Shown here: positions 2,423-61,246 of the stretch, in pieces
Numbering within the stretch: the first letter of the stretch is position 1
Layout: each line of letters starts with the position of its first letter
Origin: an archaeon
GTDB taxonomy: Archaea; Nanobdellota; Nanobdellia; Woesearchaeales; GW2011-AR9
NCBI GenBank assembly: GCA_023259115.1
Contig: JAHFQW010000004.1
Coordinates: 12,768 to 76,767, forward strand
Length of the DNA stretch: 64,000 nucleotides
Direction of reading: 5' to 3'
Program-made: the position numbers and the translations under genes
Notes under the pieces: model-generated
Told to the model about the DNA's origin: nothing
Databases searched by the model: none
Seen by the model: only the letters and a program-made list of their open reading frames with translations

Positions 2423-4390
2423 TTACGTATTCACCAGCACTTCCACATCTCGCCCAAAGATATCCTTCAGATTCTCGAAAATTGGTTCTTTGATAAACAC
2501 CCGTGGAGGGAATTTCAGACGCGCAATCTCTCGCTCCATCTCTTCCACCGAACTCTCTTCCAGTGTGCCTAAACTACCATCCGATTCAATAGGAGCTTTC
2601 TCAATACGCTGCTCTTTCGCATCCACGTCATGAATCACAAACGCAATTTTATCCAACAGGAGCACTTCGCCAAATTTGTTTCCATGCTTCACTTTAATAC
2701 GCGTTCTCTCAAGCTCACGTCCACGTTTGCGCTGCAAATACTCAACTAAAAACGTAATTAAGCCACTGCTGCCTTTGCGCGCATTCTCAACACCCACTTT
2801 ATCCAGTTTCTTAGTATCGTATTTCTTCTTCGCATCCACAATCTCATTCAAATCACGTAAATAACGATCAGGGATTTTACCCGTTGACACGAGCTCTTTC
2901 TCAAACAATCCCACTATTTCCGAATCATTTGCCCGCTCAACTCCTTCGAGCTTCAATACATCACGAATAATCGTGATAATCTCATCATAGAGCACAACAA
3001 TACTCTTCTCATTGTGTCTATTCTCAATCTCTTTAAACAATTCGCCAATGCGCTTCAAAAACTTCTCCGCATTGGTAATCAACTCATCTAACTCTGTTCC
3101 CGTTAATTCTTTCTTATCCCCATGCTCGATTTTTTTGCGGATATCCACATTATTCTTCAAAATTGTAATGTACTCAGGTTCAAGCAATTTCTCTTTTTTG
3201 ACGAAAATCTCTTCCATCACTTCCGGCGTCTCTCGCGGCGTGGGTGGCGGCAGACCATATAACATAATTGCTGCCTGACTTGGCGTCAAAATCGCATAAT
3301 ACGTATCCTCCATACCCATATCTTTCAACCGCAGCTTGAGGCGTGAAATACTCTGCTCTCCCGTGCTCATGAATAAATCAATCGCTTCTCGTGAAGGCTT
3401 GATTCTGCCCATGCGCAGCAGCTGTTTCCAAGGCATAAAAATACCCCGATCATAAAACGGCACCCCATCCCGCAGCAACGTAAAAATGATGGGATTTGCT
3501 TCTTTGAGTGACTCCCAGAAATCTGTTAAGATATACACTTGAATATTTAACTTATTCTTAATTCCCGTAATCTCTCCTGCTTCCGCACCCATGCCAATAA
3601 TAATTGCGCGCAACTTATCTTTCAACTCCACACGTGTCATCTTCTTGACATCTGTATCATCAATCACAATCCACACATCAATATCAGAAGTTGCCGTAGC
3701 CCGGCCCTGTGTTAAACTGCCCGCGAGCACATAACTCAGAATATACTTCTCAAACTTTTTAATCACCATACTCTTATGAATCTCTGCAATCTTAATTGCC
3801 GCAAGCATGCCTGAATCATAAATCGGCGCCCCCAGCGCAATCATTCTATTCAAATCATACTTTGCATCATAACAATTCTGCCACAAATCTGTAAGCAAAA
3901 TACTCTGCGGTACTAAATCTTTATCCACATCTTCCCCTATCTTCTTAATAATCGTTGAAAATTTCTGATACAACTCATCTTTCGTCATCGTCTTTGATGT
4001 CGTATCATCCACCACCACAAGCACATTAATCTTTTTCTCATCAATTGGCTCTTTCTTTGCAGGTTCAGCGCTCGCCATCTCAGCGCCACGTTCTCCTCCC
4101 TCACTACCTGCTCCCTCTCTTTCTTGTGGCACTGCTTTCTCCGGAGGTAATAACGTAATTCCCACAATATAATCACCAAACTTCTCAAGCACTTTCTCTT
4201 TAAATACATCCAACTTCTCTTTGAGAACTTTAAGCTTCTTCTCTAATTCCGGTGGCAACTTAGGCATTGGCGGCATACCCGGCATTGCTGCCTGCTCTGG
4301 TAACCCACTACGAACTGCACTTCCCCCTTCCTCCTCTTGCTTTCCCACTGCTTTAATCGACTTTGGTTGCATTGATGTTTTCTTTGCCAT
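2423..4390 (-). CDS. protein with tandem nucleotidyltransferase (Pol-beta superfamily) modules and a Pro-rich N-terminus
   Basis: Canonical NTase motif LAGSLTQGRATATSDIDVWIVIDD, plus an upstream degenerate duplicate INVLVVVDDTTSKTMTKDEL. Both are followed by similar LTD(L/F)W... segments. Confidence 0.5.
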   Translation of the reverse strand: MAKKTSMQPKSIKAVGKQEEEGGSAVRSGLPEQAAMPGMPPMPKLPPELEKKLKVLKEKLDVFKEKVLEKFGDYIVGITLLPPEKAVPQEREGAGSEGGERGAEMASAEPAKKEPIDEKKINVLVVVDDTTSKTMTKDELYQKFSTIIKKIGEDVDKDLVPQSILLTDLWQNCYDAKYDLNRMIALGAPIYDSGMLAAIKIAEIHKSMVIKKFEKYILSYVLAGSLTQGRATATSDIDVWIVIDDTDVKKMTRVELKDKLRAIIIGMGAEAGEITGIKNKLNIQVYILTDFWESLKEANPIIFTLLRDGVPFYDRGIFMPWKQLLRMGRIKPSREAIDLFMSTGEQSISRLKLRLKDMGMEDTYYAILTPSQAAIMLYGLPPPTPRETPEVMEEIFVKKEKLLEPEYITILKNNVDIRKKIEHGDKKELTGTELDELITNAEKFLKRIGELFKEIENRHNEKSIVVLYDEIITIIRDVLKLEGVERANDSEIVGLFEKELVSTGKIPDRYLRDLNEIVDAKKKYDTKKLDKVGVENARKGSSGLITFLVEYLQRKRGRELERTRIKVKHGNKFGEVLLLDKIAFVIHDVDAKEQRIEKAPIESDGSLGTLEESSVEEMEREIARLKFPPRVFIKEPIFENLKDIFGRDVEVLVNT

Positions 4391-24998: not shown

Positions 24999-28295
<3,297 letters not shown>

Positions 28296-35108: not shown

Positions 35109-36650
35109 TCACACCTTCTTATCCCTCTCCATTCTCGCCTTCACCTTCCCCCCAATCATCGGCAGATACAACTCCAACATCAAATCTTTCTTTGCATCTT
35201 TCACAAATGGCAAAAAATCCGCAATCATCGCTAAATATCCCACCCGAAAATCTCCCCCCTCATCCAACACCCGTCGTTCAATCTCACTCACTTCACTCTT
35301 CTCAAACTGCTTTGCAAACACCACTTTATCCATTATTCGATGATAGGTTTTCTTATGATGAATCCGAATCTCTTGAAATTCATTAAAATCATTATTTATC
35401 TCATCAAAAGATTTTTGTGCAGTTCTTTTCTTTCTCAACAAACACCTAGCCTTATTTTCATCAATTCTCTCAAATCGACCATAATGTCGAAACACAGCTC
35501 GTCTATACTCTTTGACTTCATCATCTAATACATACAACTTCTCCAATCTTTCTCGTAAATACCCATCCCTCTCCGCTTCAGAAAAAACATACTCCCTATC
35601 CAAACTCGCACTCTCATACAACGTTCGCACTACTCGCATACCTCGCAACTTCTCCTGTTCCTCAACTGACAATTCTTGCCATAAACCATCAACAATATTA
35701 AGTAATGACTTTTTTTCATCATCTTCTAATTTATTCAACCCCACCACATACCGCTTCTGCGCTCGTGCCAACTTCCCAAAATGTGAATTTAATAACATAT
35801 ACTCAGACAAACCTAGTCGCACAATCGTCTTCTCCTCCTCCACAAAATTCCAATAATCATCTTTTCCAACTGCTAAACGTAATGACTTATCACAAACACC
35901 CCCCGAATCATCAAACCCTATCCGCCCATACACCACTTTATTCTGAATTCCTTTCTGTGGAATAAACACCCGAACTCTCATCGCCTTCTCAGTGTCATCA
36001 TAATAGACCATAGATTCACAAGAAACAGCATTATATCTCTCTTTGTTAAACCTCTGCCCCGCAACCAACACATCAAGTGAATCGGTAGGTGTATGCAATC
36101 GCTCCATCATCGCAGCAAATTCTTCCGCAGAATAATGTACCATTGATCTAAACTCTCGCAGAGAACTTCTATTATTAGGATAATTCCTTAATTTCATCAC
36201 ATGCCCCTCTTGTGCAGTAATCGCACCAAATTGTTTCCAAAATAAGTCACATAAATATCTCTCAGGCTTCCCCACATCTAAAATCAACGCAAAATGCGAC
36301 GCCTCCTGGAACAACTTCTGCTTCGTATCATGTTTACTGGTATCCCGCCAATCAAAAAACTGCACAATTTCCGGCTTCACCCCAAACGCTTCAAAATAAG
36401 AATACAGATAAGGGATAATCGTTGTACAATTAAACCCAGAAATATTCTTTTCCTGCATTTCATGATACCAAGGGGCATAATTCCCTGTATAAAATTGATG
36501 CGTAAATCCATAATGTATTTGTTCACGAAAACCATAATATAACATGTACGCTCTCTTCATCAAAGAATCTTTTGTACCCTGCATTTCAAAATAACGTGAC
36601 GCCATTGTTCGCGCCGTCTCCAATGATTTTTCCGGAAATGCATGTGCCAT
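35109..36650 (-). CDS. large hypothetical protein, possibly with an N-terminal transglutaminase-like Cys-protease domain
   Basis: GFNCTTIIPYLYSYFEAFGVKPEIV ... HFALILDVGK ... YLCDLF resembles the TGase-like Cys/His/Asp arrangement. Weak. Confidence 0.35.
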   Translation of the reverse strand: MAHAFPEKSLETARTMASRYFEMQGTKDSLMKRAYMLYYGFREQIHYGFTHQFYTGNYAPWYHEMQEKNISGFNCTTIIPYLYSYFEAFGVKPEIVQFFDWRDTSKHDTKQKLFQEASHFALILDVGKPERYLCDLFWKQFGAITAQEGHVMKLRNYPNNRSSLREFRSMVHYSAEEFAAMMERLHTPTDSLDVLVAGQRFNKERYNAVSCESMVYYDDTEKAMRVRVFIPQKGIQNKVVYGRIGFDDSGGVCDKSLRLAVGKDDYWNFVEEEKTIVRLGLSEYMLLNSHFGKLARAQKRYVVGLNKLEDDEKKSLLNIVDGLWQELSVEEQEKLRGMRVVRTLYESASLDREYVFSEAERDGYLRERLEKLYVLDDEVKEYRRAVFRHYGRFERIDENKARCLLRKKRTAQKSFDEINNDFNEFQEIRIHHKKTYHRIMDKVVFAKQFEKSEVSEIERRVLDEGGDFRVGYLAMIADFLPFVKDAKKDLMLELYLPMIGGKVKARMERDKKV

Positions 36651-57517: not shown

Positions 57518-57730
57518 ATGAGCGAAATAATAAGCATATCTGATGATGTATATACAGAACTCACCAGAATCAAACAACAAGAGAGCTACTCAGTTGTCAT
57601 TCGTAAACTCCTTCATAATCAAAGCAATAAAGAAAAAATCCTCTCATTTTACGGTAAAGGCGGTATCGAAAAAGAAAAAATAAAATCACTAGACAAAGAG
57701 TGGCAACAATGGTCAAAAAAATATGTCTAG
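57518..57730 (+). CDS. vapB: VapB-family antitoxin (PF02697-like)
   Basis: ISISDDVYTELTRIKQQESYSVVIRKLL. A TATA box (GATTTATATATA) lies ~25 nt upstream, so the transcript is leaderless. Confidence 0.6.
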   Translation: MSEIISISDDVYTELTRIKQQESYSVVIRKLLHNQSNKEKILSFYGKGGIEKEKIKSLDKEWQQWSKKYV

Positions 57731-58086
57731 ATTCTGACATCATTATAAACCTCCTCCATGGAGAGCCGAAAACCAAACAACTTCTAGAAAAACTAGACGC
57801 AGAATTTTTCATGACCACCATCAACTCATTCGAAATCTGGCAAGGCCGCAAAAATAACGAACTCATCTTTGAATTTTTAGAAAGTACCCCTCTTCTTGCA
57901 TTTGATCAAAAGGCCGCATTAAAAGCCGGAGATATAACCAAAGATCTCAGAAAACAGGGCAATCCCCTTGAAATACGTGATGTGTTTATAGCCGCCATTT
58001 GCATTACGCAAAACATTGAATTACTTACCCTCAACAAAAAACACTTTGAACGATTAGAAAAATATGGATTAATACTAACAAAGTAA
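57700..58086 (+). CDS. vapC: PIN-domain toxin VapC
   Basis: KICLDSDIIINLL and DVFIAAICITQNIELLTLNKKHFERL. The true start is probably the Met at 57709; it overlaps the antitoxin end. Confidence 0.7.
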   Translation: MATMVKKICLDSDIIINLLHGEPKTKQLLEKLDAEFFMTTINSFEIWQGRKNNELIFEFLESTPLLAFDQKAALKAGDITKDLRKQGNPLEIRDVFIAAICITQNIELLTLNKKHFERLEKYGLILTK

Positions 58087-58102: not shown

Positions 58103-60832
58103 TCACAACCCCAATCTCCCCAGAATCACATCCGCATCAAACTTCTCTAAATCTGTATACTCCTGACCTACACCTAAAAATAAGATAGGCTTCTTAATTG
58201 TATATGCAATCGATAATGGCGCCCCACCTTTCTCATCCACATCTACTTTTGTTAAAATTGCCCCATCCATCTCAACCAAAGAATTAAACTGGCGTGCCTG
58301 TTCAATACAATCATTTCCCGTAATACTCTCACCTACAAAAAGCTTCAAATCTGGCTTCACCACTCGAATAATCTTCCCCAACTCCGCCATTAAATTAGTA
58401 TTCGAATGCAACCTTCCCGCCGTATCAATCAACACCACATCAATCTTATTCTTAATCGCATACTGCACCGCATCAAATGCTACTGCCGCCGCATCACTTC
58501 CATAATCCTGTTGAATCATCTTCACTCCCAGCTTTTTCGCATGTTCACCTAACTGCTGAATTGCTGCTGCCCGAAACGTATCACACGCCGCAAGCACCAC
58601 AGAAAGACCTTGCTGCTGCAAATGATACGTCAACTTCGCAATCGACGTCGTCTTCCCCGTTCCATTGATACCAAAAAACGCAATAACATACGGCTTCTGC
58701 TTTTTCGCAGCTATCCTCTCACTCAACTCTGTAGATTCAAACGCTAATATTTCGCGTAACGTCCCCTCTAGAGTTTTATGAATCTTCTCACCCACATCCC
58801 ACGGCAACGGCTTACCTACCAATTCATGGCCCAAATCAACTTTAATTTTCTCTATCACTTCAACAGAAACATTATTCTCAAGTAACGCAAGTTCCAAATC
58901 CCAAAACAACTCCTCAAACTTCTCCGAAGAAATCGTTCGAGACGTAATCGTTTCTTTAATCTTGCCAAAAATAGTCTTCTTCTGTGGTTCTTGCAAAATC
59001 TCCCCATCAACCTCTTTAACTTTAGAATCTTTAACTTTAGACACATTAAATTCAATATCACTTTTCTCAGGGAGAGAAACTGGTTTTTCTTTTATGTTCT
59101 CTTCTTGCATCCTCTCATCAAACTCTTCCTCAACATTCTTCTTAAAAGAAAACGTCTCTTTCAACTTCCCCAAAAAACTTTTTTTCTGCTCACGAACCTC
59201 TTCTCTTTGTGCAATCCCTGAAATATCTACTGTATGTTCAATAGCATAATCCCACCCTAATTGAAATGCTCTTCGTAACCTCCAATCTTGGGCAATCGCC
59301 TGCTCCCACGTTTTCTGCTTCAACAAAACATCCAATGCCAACTGCGGTGCCTGATGCGCCACAATCGCTACATGCTTCCCATAATAATTCTCAAATAGAA
59401 AATTAACAAACTCTGCCATTCTTTTCTCTACATCATGATAACTCTCCCCGTTTGGAAATGTTTCACCAACATACTCACCCATCCTCTCTTTAAACAAACT
59501 CGCTTTCTCACCGTTAAAATCGCCATAATTTGCCTCTCTCAAACGTGCATCTTCAATAATAGGAATATTTCTGTCCGGAAACATTAATTTGGCAGAATCA
59601 ACTGCTCGTTTCAAATCAGAACAAAACACCACCTCAAAATTGTGACTTCGTAATTTTATTGCTGACTCTTTTGATTGTGTAATTCCTAATATTGAAAGCT
59701 CACCAGGATTCCAACCTGTTGCGATATCCCGTTCATTATCCGTTGTTGTACCATGAACAAAATACGTAATTTTCACACCATTGATTTCTTCAGAAACATG
59801 ATCCTCCCCCGTTTCTTTCATAGTTTCTTGACTGACATCTAATGATTTATTTTTTTGAACAACCGCTTCTTTCTTCTCACCTTTTTCTCGTTTTTCCTGC
59901 TCTCTCACCTTCGCAAAATGCTCCATCTGTTGAGCTAACACACTTTTCTTATCAGACAATTTTGAAGAATGAGTAATTTCTTTTTCTTTATGATCAAAAA
60001 CGCCAACTTTAAAATCTCGTGCAAATAATTCTTCTAAAATAGCCAATCTTTTTACACCTTCACTCTCAGTCATATGAGCATAGTTCTCAAAAACTTGAAT
60101 TTCTGCAACATCCTTGAATGAATTGATGTAAAAATCTCTTATTTCATCCGTAATCCACGGATCTTTTAGACCAAAAACAAACGCCATTTCATCTACATTA
60201 TTTTTTATTTTTTTAAAATCCAATCCTCTATCTTGGAATTCTCTAAAAACACGTAATTCCTCTGAATTCAGATTCTTCCCAAATAATTTAAAATAATCTT
60301 GAGACGGTTTTGCGCCAACGGGAGCCACCATGATTAACTTTTTTACTTTATATCTCTCGGCTAATTTTAATGCCAGTAGGCCCCCCATACTATGTCCCAC
60401 CAGATTTAAGTTATCTTTATTTGCTTGAACAATCTTTTTTTCAGCAAAAGAAAACCATTTTTCAAAAGTAGGTTTATCACTATCTGGCTGGTCAAATGAT
60501 TCAGCAACATACTCTTTTTTATGTAAATATTCTTTTAATTTTGGGATAAAACCAGATTGAGAATTATCATCCCACCCATGAAAAATTAAAACATGTTCTC
60601 TTTCCTTTTTTCCACCAGATACCCCCTCATTTTTTTTAACTGGAGCAACAACCTTCTCTTCTTTTTTGACAGATTCAACTTGTTTCACAACTTGTTTCTC
60701 AACAGTTATAGGAATCTTTTCCTCAGAAACTTCTTTCTCCACTTCCCGCTGCGTAACTTCCGCCTCTTCCTCCGCCTTGCGAGAAAAAATCGACAACGCG
60801 CTCTTCAGCTTATCTTTGAATTTACCAAACAT
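58103..60832 (-). CDS. ftsY: signal recognition particle receptor FtsY, as a single 909-aa ORF. The N-terminal ~550 aa contain an alpha/beta-hydrolase (esterase) domain and a histidine-phosphatase (PGM-family) domain.
   Basis: C-terminal NG domain: IAFFGINGTGKTTSIAKL, DTFRAAAIQQL, LIDTAGRLH and TKVDVDEKGGAPLS. N-terminal part: LIFHGW...VGHSMGGLLALKLA (GxSxG esterase) and ITYFVHGTTTDNERDIATGWNPGELSILG...VFCSDLKRAVDSA (RHG-phosphatase-like). Confidence 0.8.
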   Translation of the reverse strand: MFGKFKDKLKSALSIFSRKAEEEAEVTQREVEKEVSEEKIPITVEKQVVKQVESVKKEEKVVAPVKKNEGVSGGKKEREHVLIFHGWDDNSQSGFIPKLKEYLHKKEYVAESFDQPDSDKPTFEKWFSFAEKKIVQANKDNLNLVGHSMGGLLALKLAERYKVKKLIMVAPVGAKPSQDYFKLFGKNLNSEELRVFREFQDRGLDFKKIKNNVDEMAFVFGLKDPWITDEIRDFYINSFKDVAEIQVFENYAHMTESEGVKRLAILEELFARDFKVGVFDHKEKEITHSSKLSDKKSVLAQQMEHFAKVREQEKREKGEKKEAVVQKNKSLDVSQETMKETGEDHVSEEINGVKITYFVHGTTTDNERDIATGWNPGELSILGITQSKESAIKLRSHNFEVVFCSDLKRAVDSAKLMFPDRNIPIIEDARLREANYGDFNGEKASLFKERMGEYVGETFPNGESYHDVEKRMAEFVNFLFENYYGKHVAIVAHQAPQLALDVLLKQKTWEQAIAQDWRLRRAFQLGWDYAIEHTVDISGIAQREEVREQKKSFLGKLKETFSFKKNVEEEFDERMQEENIKEKPVSLPEKSDIEFNVSKVKDSKVKEVDGEILQEPQKKTIFGKIKETITSRTISSEKFEELFWDLELALLENNVSVEVIEKIKVDLGHELVGKPLPWDVGEKIHKTLEGTLREILAFESTELSERIAAKKQKPYVIAFFGINGTGKTTSIAKLTYHLQQQGLSVVLAACDTFRAAAIQQLGEHAKKLGVKMIQQDYGSDAAAVAFDAVQYAIKNKIDVVLIDTAGRLHSNTNLMAELGKIIRVVKPDLKLFVGESITGNDCIEQARQFNSLVEMDGAILTKVDVDEKGGAPLSIAYTIKKPILFLGVGQEYTDLEKFDADVILGRLGL

Positions 60833-60838
60833 AATAAA

Positions 60839-61246
60839 TCACCGTATGTGTTCTTCCACTTCTTTATAAACTTTCATCGCTTGATTCGTCAACTGCTGCA
60901 ATATTTCTTCTGCTTCTACCAAACGTAGTGCCAATTCTTTTTTTTGCTCTTGCAACAACTCTAACACTTGACCGGAATTCTTCTCAACCACCGTATTAGC
61001 TCCCACATTCACAAGCAGCGTTGTGCTCTCCTGTAATGTTGCTTTCATAAAAATCCCATTAGCAATTGGCGCCAACACCTCTCCCCCAACTTGCGCAATC
61101 GCCAACTCCTCAATTGCCGCAGAAGATTCCTCTAGATCAACCGTATGCTGTTGCATCAGCTCCACTTGCTGTGTAATCTGTTCAATCTGCTGCTGCAGCA
61201 TCTGGAAATAAGCATATTTTTGTTGAATCTCTTCTTCACGAACCAT
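60839..61246 (-). CDS. pfdA: prefoldin alpha subunit
   Basis: Coiled coil, central beta-hairpin VLAPIANGIFMKATLQESTTLLVNVGANTVVEKN, then coiled coil. Confidence 0.7.
   Translation of the reverse strand: MVREEEIQQKYAYFQMLQQQIEQITQQVELMQQHTVDLEESSAAIEELAIAQVGGEVLAPIANGIFMKATLQESTTLLVNVGANTVVEKNSGQVLELLQEQKKELALRLVEAEEILQQLTNQAMKVYKEVEEHIR

What the first reader, a model, noticed from the sequence alone, without database searches (positions are those of the whole stretch)
58103..60832. FtsY appears fused in one 909-aa ORF to an esterase-like domain and a histidine-phosphatase domain
The C-terminal ~350 aa are an unambiguous SRP-receptor NG domain. The N-terminal ~550 aa replace the usual acidic A-domain with a GHSMGG alpha/beta-hydrolase and a PGM-family phosphatase-like domain (VHGTTTDNE in place of RHGET, so possibly inactive). 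These are followed by Lys/Glu-rich linkers containing two FxGKxKE repeats. I am not aware of this domain architecture for FtsY. It could couple membrane targeting to a lipid or phospho-metabolite activity. Alternatively it could be an in-frame gene fusion peculiar to this lineage.
Basis: partly seen in the sequence, partly recalled or inferred. Interest (0 to 1): 0.65.

Follow-up and report, generated by a model that had tools for sequence, protein, structure and literature searches.

The report
SRP receptor FtsY carrying two enzyme cassettes
This archaeal gene really encodes one 909-residue protein in which the membrane-targeting receptor FtsY carries two apparently intact small enzymes (an esterase and a phosphatase) in its floppy N-terminal arm. 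The same enzyme cassettes turn up nested in other translation proteins of ultra-small archaea and bacteria, and the papers searched do not describe this.

Summary
ORF 58103..60832(-) encodes 909 aa: a YdeN-like serine hydrolase (SerH, aa 80-281), a branch-1 histidine phosphatase (HisP, aa 353-531) and a bona fide archaeal FtsY NG domain (aa 623-909). It lies directly after prefoldin-alpha.

It is not an assembly artefact. A second assembly holds identical DNA, and diverged relatives keep the open frame. About 115 DPANN (ultra-small archaea) FtsYs carry HisP, about 19 SerH, 5 both, and some NUDIX.

The enzymes do not replace the A-domain. They sit as cassettes inside a conserved, mostly disordered Lys/Glu-rich scaffold, and close relatives (NG at least 83% identical) have the same scaffold with one cassette or none.

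Catalytic residues are invariant: SerH S148/D224/H253, HisP H360/N366/R409/E433/H493. The V-for-R change in RHG marks a whole ~181-aa family that is 60-70% identical between CPR (ultra-small bacteria) and DPANN.

The same cassettes occur inside LeuRS, a class-II aaRS, uL22, eS19 and EngA. I therefore read them as autonomous passenger enzymes piggy-backing on essential translation and targeting proteins, not as a membrane-lipid device. Their physiological role is unresolved.

Verdict: new variant of a known kind, interest 0.62.

The parts
58103..60832 (-). Complete ftsY ORF, 909 aa plus a TGA stop.
   Evidence: An identical protein, P0001, is in public data. A second assembly holds identical DNA.
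60764..60832 (-). N-terminal cationic amphipathic helix, aa 1-23 (MFGKFKDKLKSALSIFSRKAEEE). This is the first FxGKxK motif and the putative membrane-binding element.
   Evidence: AF2 predicts a helix at aa 3-23 with pLDDT about 78. The hydrophobic moment is 0.57, above the 95th percentile of this protein, with net charge +3. M1, F2, L5, K6, K8 and L9 are at least 90% conserved in 120 homologues.
60596..60763 (-). Lys/Glu/Val-rich disordered linker 1, aa 24-79.
   Evidence: pLDDT is below 50 for aa 29-73. Composition: K 19%, E 24%, V 19%.
59990..60595 (-). SerH cassette, aa 80-281: a YdeN/RBBP9-type serine hydrolase with GHSMGG, triad S148 (60389-60391), D224 (60161-60163) and H253 (60074-60076).
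   Evidence: Pfam PF06821. Its alignment to YdeN 1uxo is weak (E 5.9e-4). The triad and H85-G86 are invariant in 19 of 19 fused copies. AF2 predicts a fold.
59882..59941 (-). Conserved scaffold helix, aa 298-317 (VLAQQMEHFAKVREQEKREK). It is also present in cassette-free relatives.
   Evidence: NLLAQQMEHFAKLKE in P0002, P0006, P0074, P0078 and L013. AF2 helix at aa 298-317.
59777..59881 (-). Acidic disordered linker 2, aa 318-352.
   Evidence: pLDDT is below 50 for aa 317-342.
59240..59776 (-). HisP cassette, aa 353-531: a branch-1 histidine phosphatase with VHG in place of RHG (V359 at 59756-59758, H360 at 59753-59755). It also has N366, R409, E433 and H493.
   Evidence: Pfam PF00300. It aligns to CobC 6nru. 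The five catalytic residues are invariant in 103 of 103 fused copies, and position 359 is never Arg. pLDDT is 93-98. The segment corresponds end to end to the ~181-aa stand-alone proteins.
59150..59221 (-). Scaffold helix aa 538-561, containing the second motif SFLGKLKETF.
   Evidence: AF2 helix at aa 538-561. The equivalent GFFGKLKKTFTFKK is conserved in relatives with and without cassettes. It is not strongly amphipathic, with a moment of 0.16-0.25.
58982..59149 (-). Disordered linker 3, aa 562-617.
   Evidence: pLDDT is below 50 for aa 560-628.
58106..58981 (-). Third motif (KKTIFGKIKETITS, at the junction with helix alphaN1) followed by the FtsY NG domain, aa 618-909. GTPase motifs: G1 GINGTGKT at aa 721, DTFRA at 751, DTAGR at 803, TKVD at 861, GVGQ at 887.
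   Evidence: Foldseek matches P. furiosus FtsY 3e70 at 50% identity, TM-score (target) 0.83, E 3e-30.
60839..61246 (-). Upstream prefoldin gene (135 aa). Its stop lies 6 nt before the ftsY ATG, in the conserved archaeal pfdA-ftsY arrangement.
   Evidence: Pfam PF02996 on the identical gene in L001. The junction sequence is shown.

Best explanation
What it is. This is the organism's genuine SRP receptor, FtsY. The C-terminal NG domain should work as in any archaeon: it pairs with SRP54 in a GTP-dependent way at the membrane. What differs is the A-region. It is usually absent or short in archaea, about 71 residues in Sulfolobus acidocaldarius. Here it is a ~620-residue, mostly disordered Lys/Glu-rich tether that starts with a cationic amphipathic helix.

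The two cassettes. Two complete small enzymes have been inserted in frame into this tether. Each corresponds end to end to a stand-alone protein. One is a YdeN-type Ser-Asp-His esterase. The other is a ~181-aa histidine phosphatase of a special VHG subfamily.

How it most likely works. The cassettes behave as independent beads on a string. They keep their own catalysis and are made in the same amount and in the same place as FtsY.

Wider context. They belong to a small set of hydrolases (SerH, VHG-HisP, NUDIX, Ham1). In CPR bacteria and DPANN archaea these have repeatedly been nested in essential translation and targeting proteins. They are readily gained and lost.

The fusion most likely serves piggy-back co-expression and co-localisation with the translation and targeting machinery. 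It does not look like regulation of the SRP GTPase cycle, nor a membrane-lipid activity.

Shown: the anatomy, conservation, cassette behaviour and host range.
Inferred: catalytic activity, membrane binding by the N-terminal helix, and the piggy-back rationale.
For: Reality and identity of the gene.

Independent assembly and diverged orthologues keep the frame.

Beads-on-a-string model: three folded domains (pLDDT 70-98) separated by segments with pLDDT below 50.

Catalytic residues invariant in the fused state: HisP 103 of 103, SerH 19 of 19.

Cassette behaviour:
- The scaffold is colinear, with clean presence or absence of SerH and HisP among FtsYs whose NG domains are at least 83% identical.
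- Domain order is reversed in other lineages: HisP-SerH in P0004/L034, and HisP-NUDIX in P0027 against NUDIX-HisP in P0057.
- Distribution on an NG tree is patchy: 36 changes for HisP and 9 for SerH.

Stand-alone forms: the HisP family counts more than 6,500 proteins, and the best hits are ~181 aa and 60-70% identical in both CPR and DPANN. SerH stand-alone forms are ~195 aa.

Other hosts:
- SerH lies inside 31 LeuRS proteins next to the editing domain, often together with NUDIX or Ham1.
- SerH is also fused to uL22 within the L23-L2-S19-L22 operon, to eS19 and to EngA.
- HisP is fused to a class-II aaRS and to a deaminase.

A-domain background: it is variable and involved in membrane attachment, and once E. 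coli FtsY is membrane-bound, cleaving it off does not affect receptor function (PMC2572998). It is disordered and about 71 aa in S. acidocaldarius (bioRxiv 10.1101/2022.04.13.488184).
Against: - No activity, localisation or protein-level data exist.
- AF2 output gives no inter-domain confidence, so contacts between the cassettes and NG cannot be excluded.
- All identified hosts are translation-linked. That could mean a real functional tie to translation (rival 1) and not mere piggy-backing.
- Only the N-terminal helix is clearly amphipathic. The two internal FxGKxKE motifs are not.
- The trees are neighbour-joining without support values.
- The sampling of homologues was biased by the query.
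Confidence: 0.55

Rival explanations
1. Translation-linked function. The cassettes are recruited on purpose to the translation apparatus. SerH would be an esterase acting on aminoacyl- or peptidyl-tRNA or on nascent chains. HisP, NUDIX and Ham1 would clean up nucleotide by-products or RNA 2'/3'-phosphate ends. FtsY would deliver them to ribosome-SRP complexes at the membrane.
For: - Nearly every identified host is part of translation or targeting: FtsY, LeuRS (31 representatives, insertion beside the CP1 editing domain), a class-II aaRS, uL22, eS19 and EngA/Der. The exceptions are a Peptidase_S51 and a CMP/dCMP deaminase.
- SerH and NUDIX share two hosts, LeuRS and FtsY.
- Stand-alone HisP sits in an rny-HisP-ymdB operon in a Saccharibacteria genome. 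In a Parcubacteria genome it sits in a cluster of tRNA_bind, NUDIX, HD, a gene with no Pfam hit, an alpha/beta-hydrolase and HisP.
Against: - There is no biochemical evidence.
- Essential, conserved, insertion-tolerant proteins in tiny genomes are mostly translation proteins, so the enrichment may reflect opportunity.
- Cassettes are lost cleanly in close relatives.
- Other HisP neighbourhoods are uninformative.
Confidence: 0.25
2. Membrane chemistry. FtsY tethers an esterase and a phosphatase to the membrane surface to remodel or scavenge lipids or phospho-metabolites in a lipid-auxotrophic DPANN cell.
For: - FtsY is a peripheral membrane protein.
- A conserved cationic amphipathic N-terminal helix is present.
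- SerH has weak similarities to lipid esterases: monoacylglycerol lipase 6qe2 at E 4.6e-3, and LIDHydrolase below its cut-off.
- One relative, P0019, has a sub-threshold SRPBCC lipid-binding hit.
Against: - The same cassettes are fused to soluble proteins (LeuRS, a class-II aaRS, r-proteins, EngA) and are abundant as stand-alone ~181-195-aa proteins.
- The lipid-related matches are all below curated thresholds.
- The closest relatives keep the scaffold without any enzyme.
Confidence: 0.1
3. Separate products. The ORF is a polyprotein-like unit or has an internal start, so the cell contains free esterase, free phosphatase and a short FtsY.
For: - Long disordered linkers could be protease-accessible.
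- The E. coli A-domain can be cleaved off without loss of receptor function (PMC2572998).
- An in-frame ATG lies at aa 575.
- Split or truncated forms exist elsewhere: L081 and P0257.
Against: - M575 is not conserved in relatives.
- There is no conserved Met or start context before NG.
- The frame is maintained across hundreds of diverged sequences with variable linkers.
Confidence: 0.07
4. Artefact: a sequencing or assembly error has joined an upstream hydrolase gene to ftsY.
For: None found. The finding comes from a metagenome-type assembly.
Against: - A second assembly holds identical DNA.
- The same triple fusion is seen at 64% identity (P0002) and in P0003 and P0005.
- About 115 HisP-FtsY and about 19 SerH-FtsY proteins come from independent samples.
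Confidence: 0.01

Closest known systems
Archaeal FtsY (Pyrococcus furiosus 3DM9/3E70; Sulfolobus 5L3S/5L3W)
   Same: The NG domain is 46-50% identical, with a TM-score (target) of 0.75-0.92. All GTPase motifs are present. The gene sits after pfdA.
   Different: Most bacterial and archaeal receptors are reduced to the NG core (PMC2572998), and S. acidocaldarius has a short acidic A-domain of about 71 aa (bioRxiv 2022.04.13.488184). Here about 620 aa precede NG and contain two folded enzymes.
E. coli FtsY A-domain
   Same: It is a long, charged, natively disordered N-terminal region. It has a positively charged N-terminal membrane-binding sequence and a second element at the A-N junction (PMC2572998).
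   Different: The E. coli A-domain holds no folded or enzymatic domains. Here the region is Lys/Glu-rich instead of purely acidic and works as an acceptor for cassettes.
Eukaryotic SR-alpha (own knowledge)
   Same: An SRP receptor whose NG core is preceded by a folded N-terminal domain (SRX) and a long linker.
   Different: SRX is a non-enzymatic domain that binds SR-beta. It has no relation to SerH or HisP.
CobC / PhoE / dPGM histidine phosphatases (PF00300)
   Same: Same fold. The nucleophile His, the Asn, the second Arg, the Glu and the second His all align.
   Different: The Arg of the RHG motif is always Val, Ile or Ala. Scores lie far below every NCBIfam equivalog cut-off. The domain belongs to a distinct ~181-aa family found in CPR and DPANN.
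YdeN (B. subtilis 1UXO) / RBBP9 / FphH serine hydrolases (PF06821)
   Same: A minimal alpha/beta-hydrolase of about 190 aa with a GxSxG motif and a Ser-Asp-His triad.
   Different: Similarity is only distant (E around 1e-4 against PDB sequences). This subfamily is mostly known here as an in-frame insert in FtsY, LeuRS, uL22 and eS19.
Inteins and other in-frame insertions in essential genes
   Same: Self-contained modules found inside essential housekeeping proteins, with patchy distribution and different hosts.
   Different: No Hint or splicing domain was found in the ORF and no flanking repeats. The modules are ordinary metabolic hydrolases and presumably stay in the mature protein.

Membership tests
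FtsY / SRP receptor (TIGR00064) | The whole-protein score is above the curated equivalog cut-off. | tested here: met
   302.1 bits against a cut-off of 260.7.
FtsY / SRP receptor (TIGR00064) | An N helical bundle plus an SRP54-type G domain with G1-G5 and the insertion-box motif DTFRAAA. | tested here: met
   PF02881 and PF00448. GINGTGKT, DTFRA, DTAGR, TKVD and GVGQ are all present.
FtsY / SRP receptor (TIGR00064) | Three-dimensional similarity to solved FtsY structures. | tested here: met
   Foldseek match to 3e70 and 3dm9: E 3e-30, TM-score (target) 0.83-0.84, 50% identity.
FtsY / SRP receptor (TIGR00064) | GTP-dependent heterodimer with SRP54, and membrane and translocon association. | not testable with these tools
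   Needs biochemistry. Only the N-terminal amphipathic helix is predicted.
Histidine phosphatase superfamily, branch 1 (PF00300) | The domain score is above the Pfam gathering threshold. | tested here: met
   93.9 bits against 21.7.
Histidine phosphatase superfamily, branch 1 (PF00300) | An RHG motif: the Arg that precedes the nucleophilic His. | tested here: not met
   Position 359 is V in 98, I in 4 and A in 1 of 103 fused copies. It is V or A in 36 sequences that include the stand-alone forms. It is never Arg.
Histidine phosphatase superfamily, branch 1 (PF00300) | The nucleophile His, the second Arg, the Glu proton donor and the second His. | tested here: met
   H360, R409, E433 and H493 (plus N366) are invariant in 103 of 103. 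They align to CobC 6nru.
CobC, dPGM or PspA equivalogs | The score is above the NCBIfam equivalog cut-off. | tested here: not met
   TIGR03162 scores 69.4 against 162.9. NF038349 scores 53.5 against 225. NF045917 scores 55 against 350.
Ser_hydrolase PF06821 (YdeN/RBBP9) | The domain score is above the Pfam gathering threshold. | tested here: met
   38.4 bits against 22.
Ser_hydrolase PF06821 (YdeN/RBBP9) | A GxSxG nucleophile elbow and a Ser-Asp-His triad. | tested here: met
   GHSMGG with S148, D224 and H253, invariant in 19 of 19. They align to YdeN 1uxo.
Ser_hydrolase PF06821 (YdeN/RBBP9) | Esterase activity and its substrate. | not testable with these tools
Intein or mobile in-frame element (considered) | A Hint splicing domain, or terminal repeats or target-site duplications. 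| tested here: not met
   No intein family appears among the best 25 of 35 Pfam hits on the ORF. Only short, chance-like repeats were found. No relatives were found on viral contigs.

The most novel reading that the evidence does not exclude
SerH, VHG-HisP, NUDIX and Ham1 form a horizontally exchanged toolkit shared by CPR bacteria and DPANN archaea. It works physically on the translation and targeting machinery, for example in editing or rescue of ester-linked tRNA species, or in clean-up of nucleotide and RNA-end by-products. It is recruited there by in-frame nesting into FtsY, aminoacyl-tRNA synthetases, ribosomal proteins and EngA. The FtsY in this window would then be one docking platform of a previously unrecognised translation-associated quality-control system of ultra-small cells.
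Probability: 0.2. Interest if true: 0.85.

Novelty: new variant of a known kind. Interest (0 to 1): 0.62.

Why it matters
FtsY is one of the most conserved proteins in biology, and its N-terminal region is regarded as a simple membrane tether. Hundreds of DPANN lineages load that tether with apparently intact enzymes. The same enzymes are nested in aminoacyl-tRNA synthetases, ribosomal proteins and a ribosome-assembly GTPase in both CPR bacteria and DPANN archaea.

This points to a general and so far undescribed way in which ultra-small, genome-reduced cells organise small hydrolases.

It also flags a very conserved phosphatase family of unknown substrate: VHG instead of RHG, and 60-70% identity across the two domains of life. 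Both cassettes could be tested directly with recombinant protein.

Tried and rejected
- Frameshift or chimera: rejected. DNA is identical in a second assembly and the open frame is conserved.
- Pseudo-enzyme reading of VHG: rejected as decay, because the change is family-wide while the other catalytic residues are invariant.
- Mobile-element signatures: no meaningful direct or inverted repeats flank the cassettes, no intein domains in the ORF, and no relatives on IMG/VR viral contigs.
- Defence-system role: PADLOC gave only P-loop noise.
- Second copies in the window: none for SerH, HisP or NG.
- Amphipathicity of the two internal FxGKxKE motifs: not supported, with moments of 0.16-0.31.
- Gene neighbourhoods of stand-alone HisP: mostly uninformative. 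Two are suggestive.
- Literature: eight searches found no description of FtsY-enzyme fusions or of LeuRS and r-protein nesting. 'Fused signal recognition particle receptor' in JGI and KEGG labels is just the name of the FtsY orthologue group.
- Whole-model Foldseek search: it returned only FtsY NG hits and gave no information on the cassettes.
Full report
OBSERVATION. The window holds a single uninterrupted ORF at 58103..60832 on the minus strand. It runs from ATG to TGA and encodes 909 aa.

Pfam finds four domains:
- Ser_hydrolase PF06821, aa 81-270, E 1.6e-9.
- His_Phos_1 PF00300, aa 360-497, E 1.3e-26.
- SRP54_N, aa 623-675.
- SRP54 GTPase domain, aa 715-907, E 1.5e-69.

NCBIfam's ftsY equivalog TIGR00064 scores 302 bits against a cut-off of 260.7. 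All SRP-GTPase motifs are present: GINGTGKT, DTFRA, DTAGR, TKVD and GVGQ. An AlphaFold2 model of the NG part superposes on Pyrococcus furiosus FtsY at 50% identity with a TM-score of 0.83. The gene starts 6 nt after the stop of a prefoldin gene, which is the usual archaeal pfdA-ftsY arrangement. The rest of the window is archaeal: RNA polymerase A', a split B subunit and SMC.

A third copy of the last motif forms the very N-terminus, MFGKFKD.

NOT AN ARTEFACT. An independent assembly of run SRR14366787 gives a 6.9-kb contig that is identical to the window over its whole length. More tellingly, diverged proteins keep the frame:
- P0002 (953 aa, 64% identical, full coverage), P0003 and P0005 have SerH-HisP-NG.
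- P0004 and L034 have HisP-SerH-NG.

Among the 120 best database hits the architectures are:
- HisP-NG: 98
- SerH-NG: 14
- both domains: 5
- no recognisable enzyme: 3
- three of the HisP forms also carry a NUDIX domain

This sample is biased by the query. In a scan of GTDB species representatives, all 80 hits were DPANN archaea (Woese-, Nano- and Pacearchaeota). Some titles reading 'uncultured Methanosarcinales' look like placeholder names. Of these 80 FtsY genes, 13 carried a cassette and one more (L081) had SerH in a separate reading frame. The other 66 had N-terminal regions of 19-411 aa, a few cut at contig ends, with no match to either cassette.

ANATOMY. The AF2 model has a mean pLDDT of 78.5.
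- Folded domains: SerH aa 80-281, HisP aa 353-531 (pLDDT 93-98), NG aa 630-909.
- Isolated helices: aa 3-23, 298-317 and 538-561.
- Segments with pLDDT below 50: aa 29-73, 317-342 and 560-628. These are rich in Lys, Glu and Val.

The N-terminal helix is cationic (+3) and strongly amphipathic. Its hydrophobic moment of 0.57 is above the 95th percentile of this protein. The two internal FxGKxKE motifs are not amphipathic by this measure.

I aligned the N-terminal regions of the closest relatives, whose NG domains are 83-89% identical. All share one colinear scaffold:
MFGKLKDKLKSALSIFSKK - Lys/Glu linker - [SerH] - NLLAQQMEHFAKLKE - acidic linker - [HisP] - GFFGKLKKTFTFKK - linker - GLFGKIKE - NG.

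Within this scaffold the window and P0002 have both cassettes. L013 and P0006 have only SerH. L015, P0074 and P0078 have neither. The enzymes are therefore inserted in the A-region and do not replace it. Each cassette matches a whole stand-alone protein end to end.

ARE THE ENZYMES ALIVE? In 103 fused HisP domains H360, N366, R409, E433 and H493 are invariant. So are R471, R518 and three Trp residues. In 19 fused SerH domains S148, D224, H253 and the H85-G86 pair are invariant. Alignments to CobC (6nru) and to YdeN (1uxo) confirm which residues these are.

The Arg of the canonical RHG motif is Val at position 359 here. Across the fused copies it is V in 98, I in 4 and A in 1, and never Arg. 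The same holds in the stand-alone relatives. This is a fixed trait of a distinct subfamily, not decay. Activity is likely but the substrate is unknown. No NCBIfam equivalog (CobC, dPGM, PspA, GpmB) comes near its cut-off.

WHERE THE CASSETTES COME FROM.

HisP. The HisP domain alone finds more than 6,500 proteins. The best hits are ~181-aa stand-alone proteins, 60-70% identical. They occur in CPR bacteria (Magasanik-, Sacchari-, Parcu- and Gribaldobacteria) and in DPANN archaea.

On a neighbour-joining tree 118 of the 120 stand-alone sequences form a single pure clade and the fused ones lie outside it. At least 3 state changes are needed. On the NG tree the presence of HisP needs 36 changes and SerH needs 9. 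Taken together, this suggests one or a few old HisP fusions followed by many losses, and several SerH gains. These trees carry no support values.

Opposite domain orders in different lineages show independent insertions: SerH-HisP against HisP-SerH, and HisP-NUDIX against NUDIX-HisP.

SerH. An exhaustive HMMER search with SerH against 1.84 billion representatives gave 445 hits. Among the 160 SerH relatives examined the hosts are:
- stand-alone, about 195 aa: 110
- inside leucyl-tRNA synthetase, mostly just after the CP1 editing domain and often with NUDIX or Ham1 inserts: 31
- fused to uL22, inside the L23-L2-S19-L22 operon: 4
- fused to eS19: 2
- FtsY: 2 new proteins, besides the query and P0023
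- inside the ribosome-assembly GTPase EngA/Der: 1
- NUDIX-SerH fusions: 2
- SerH-Peptidase_S51: 1
- extra sequence with no Pfam hit: a few

The LeuRS hosts come from CPR bacteria (Portnoy- and Dojkabacteria) and from Nanoarchaeota. Their SerH domains are 48-57% identical to the one in this window.

A metagenome scan with HisP returned 80 loci. 66 were stand-alone and 11 were FtsY-fused. One was a NUDIX-HisP-FtsY cut off at a contig end, one was HisP fused to a class-II aaRS (L154), and one was HisP fused to a CMP/dCMP-type deaminase (L169).

I found no mobile-element signature. There are no meaningful flanking repeats, no intein domain in the ORF, and no relatives on viral contigs.

HOW IT MOST LIKELY WORKS. 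The NG domain is an ordinary SRP receptor. The long A-region is a flexible tether anchored by a cationic amphipathic N-terminal helix. This resembles the membrane-binding elements described for E. coli FtsY, whose A-domain is variable and can be cleaved off a membrane-bound receptor without loss of function (PMC2572998; bioRxiv 10.1101/2022.04.13.488184).

The two cassettes are autonomous, probably active hydrolases on this tether. They are made with FtsY and travel with it. Three facts argue for piggy-back co-expression and co-localisation with essential translation and targeting proteins:
- The same cassettes are fused to soluble translation proteins.
- They are abundant as free proteins.
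- They come and go among close relatives without any change in the scaffold.

I give this reading a confidence of 0.55. The fact that the fusion exists is near-certain.

The strongest rival (0.25) holds that the host bias towards translation proteins is functional. It draws on the LeuRS editing-domain neighbourhood, the NUDIX and Ham1 co-nesting, and the rny-HisP-ymdB operon in a Saccharibacteria genome. Separate products through cleavage or an internal start (0.07) cannot be tested here. No conserved in-frame Met precedes NG.

COMPARISON AND NOVELTY. This is a member of the FtsY family by every sequence and structure criterion I could test. The HisP cassette belongs to the histidine phosphatase fold but fails the RHG-Arg criterion and matches no named equivalog. 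SerH is a distant YdeN/RBBP9-type hydrolase.

Public records label these proteins simply 'signal recognition particle-docking protein FtsY'. Eight full-text searches found no description of the architecture or of the wider nesting phenomenon. I rate it a new variant of a known kind, with interest 0.62. The gene itself is a solid curiosity. The broader pattern it led to is the more valuable lead.

LIMITS.
- No experimental data exist.
- The homologue samples are query-biased and capped in size.
- The trees are distance-based.
- Inter-domain contacts in the model could not be assessed.
- I could not test whether genomes with a fused cassette lack a free copy, because only loci, not whole genomes, were available.

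Noticed in passing
window 1-64000: Extreme strand asymmetry. GC skew is -0.34 over the whole window. At third codon positions it is -0.64 to -0.88 on the + strand whichever way the gene points. This looks like an unusually strong mutational strand bias.
   Followed up: partly
window 24999-28286 (-): A DNA gyrase B gene of 1095 aa is interrupted by an intein: Intein_splicing PF14890 spans aa 468-891, between the GyrB and Toprim domains.
   Followed up: no
P0258-P0265, P0270, P0271, P0275-P0345 (one search hits): Leucyl-tRNA synthetases of CPR bacteria and Nanoarchaeota carry the same YdeN-like serine hydrolase in frame, mostly just after the CP1 editing domain. They often also carry NUDIX and/or Ham1 (ITPase) inserts. 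Some exceed 1,200 aa.
   Followed up: partly
L087 1659-2732; L086 7001-8005; P0358: The SerH cassette is also fused to ribosomal protein uL22 (inside the L23-L2-S19-L22 operon) and to eS19. In addition it is inserted between the two GTPase domains of EngA/Der.
   Followed up: partly
L154 (ORF from 3538) and L169 (ORF from 4447): The VHG-type HisP cassette is fused N-terminally to a class-II aminoacyl-tRNA synthetase. By eye this looks like GlyRS; Pfam gives tRNA-synt_2b plus HGTP_anticodon. In a 1.46-Mb contig HisP is fused instead to a CMP/dCMP-type deaminase.
   Followed up: partly
P0121-P0240; L002, L005, L088-L093: A ~181-aa histidine phosphatase family has an invariant ITYFVHGTTTDNE motif with no Arg before the His. 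It is 60-70% identical between CPR bacteria and DPANN archaea and has more than 6,500 members, but no assigned function. In a Saccharibacteria genome it lies in an rny-HisP-ymdB operon. In a Parcubacteria genome it lies downstream of tRNA_bind, NUDIX, HD and alpha/beta-hydrolase genes.
   Followed up: partly
L081 4821-6748; P0257: In one Woesearchaeota MAG the SerH-bearing N-terminal part of FtsY and the NG part lie in different reading frames. P0257 is a 422-aa FtsY N-terminus plus SerH with no NG. These may be frameshift errors or natural split forms.
   Followed up: no
window 57518-58086 (+): A VapB-like antitoxin (70 aa) and a PIN-domain VapC toxin (128 aa) lie immediately downstream of ftsY, convergent to it.
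   Followed up: no
window 2423-4390 (-) and 35109-36650 (-): Two long ORFs (655 aa and 513 aa) have no Pfam match at E 1e-5 or better.
   Followed up: no
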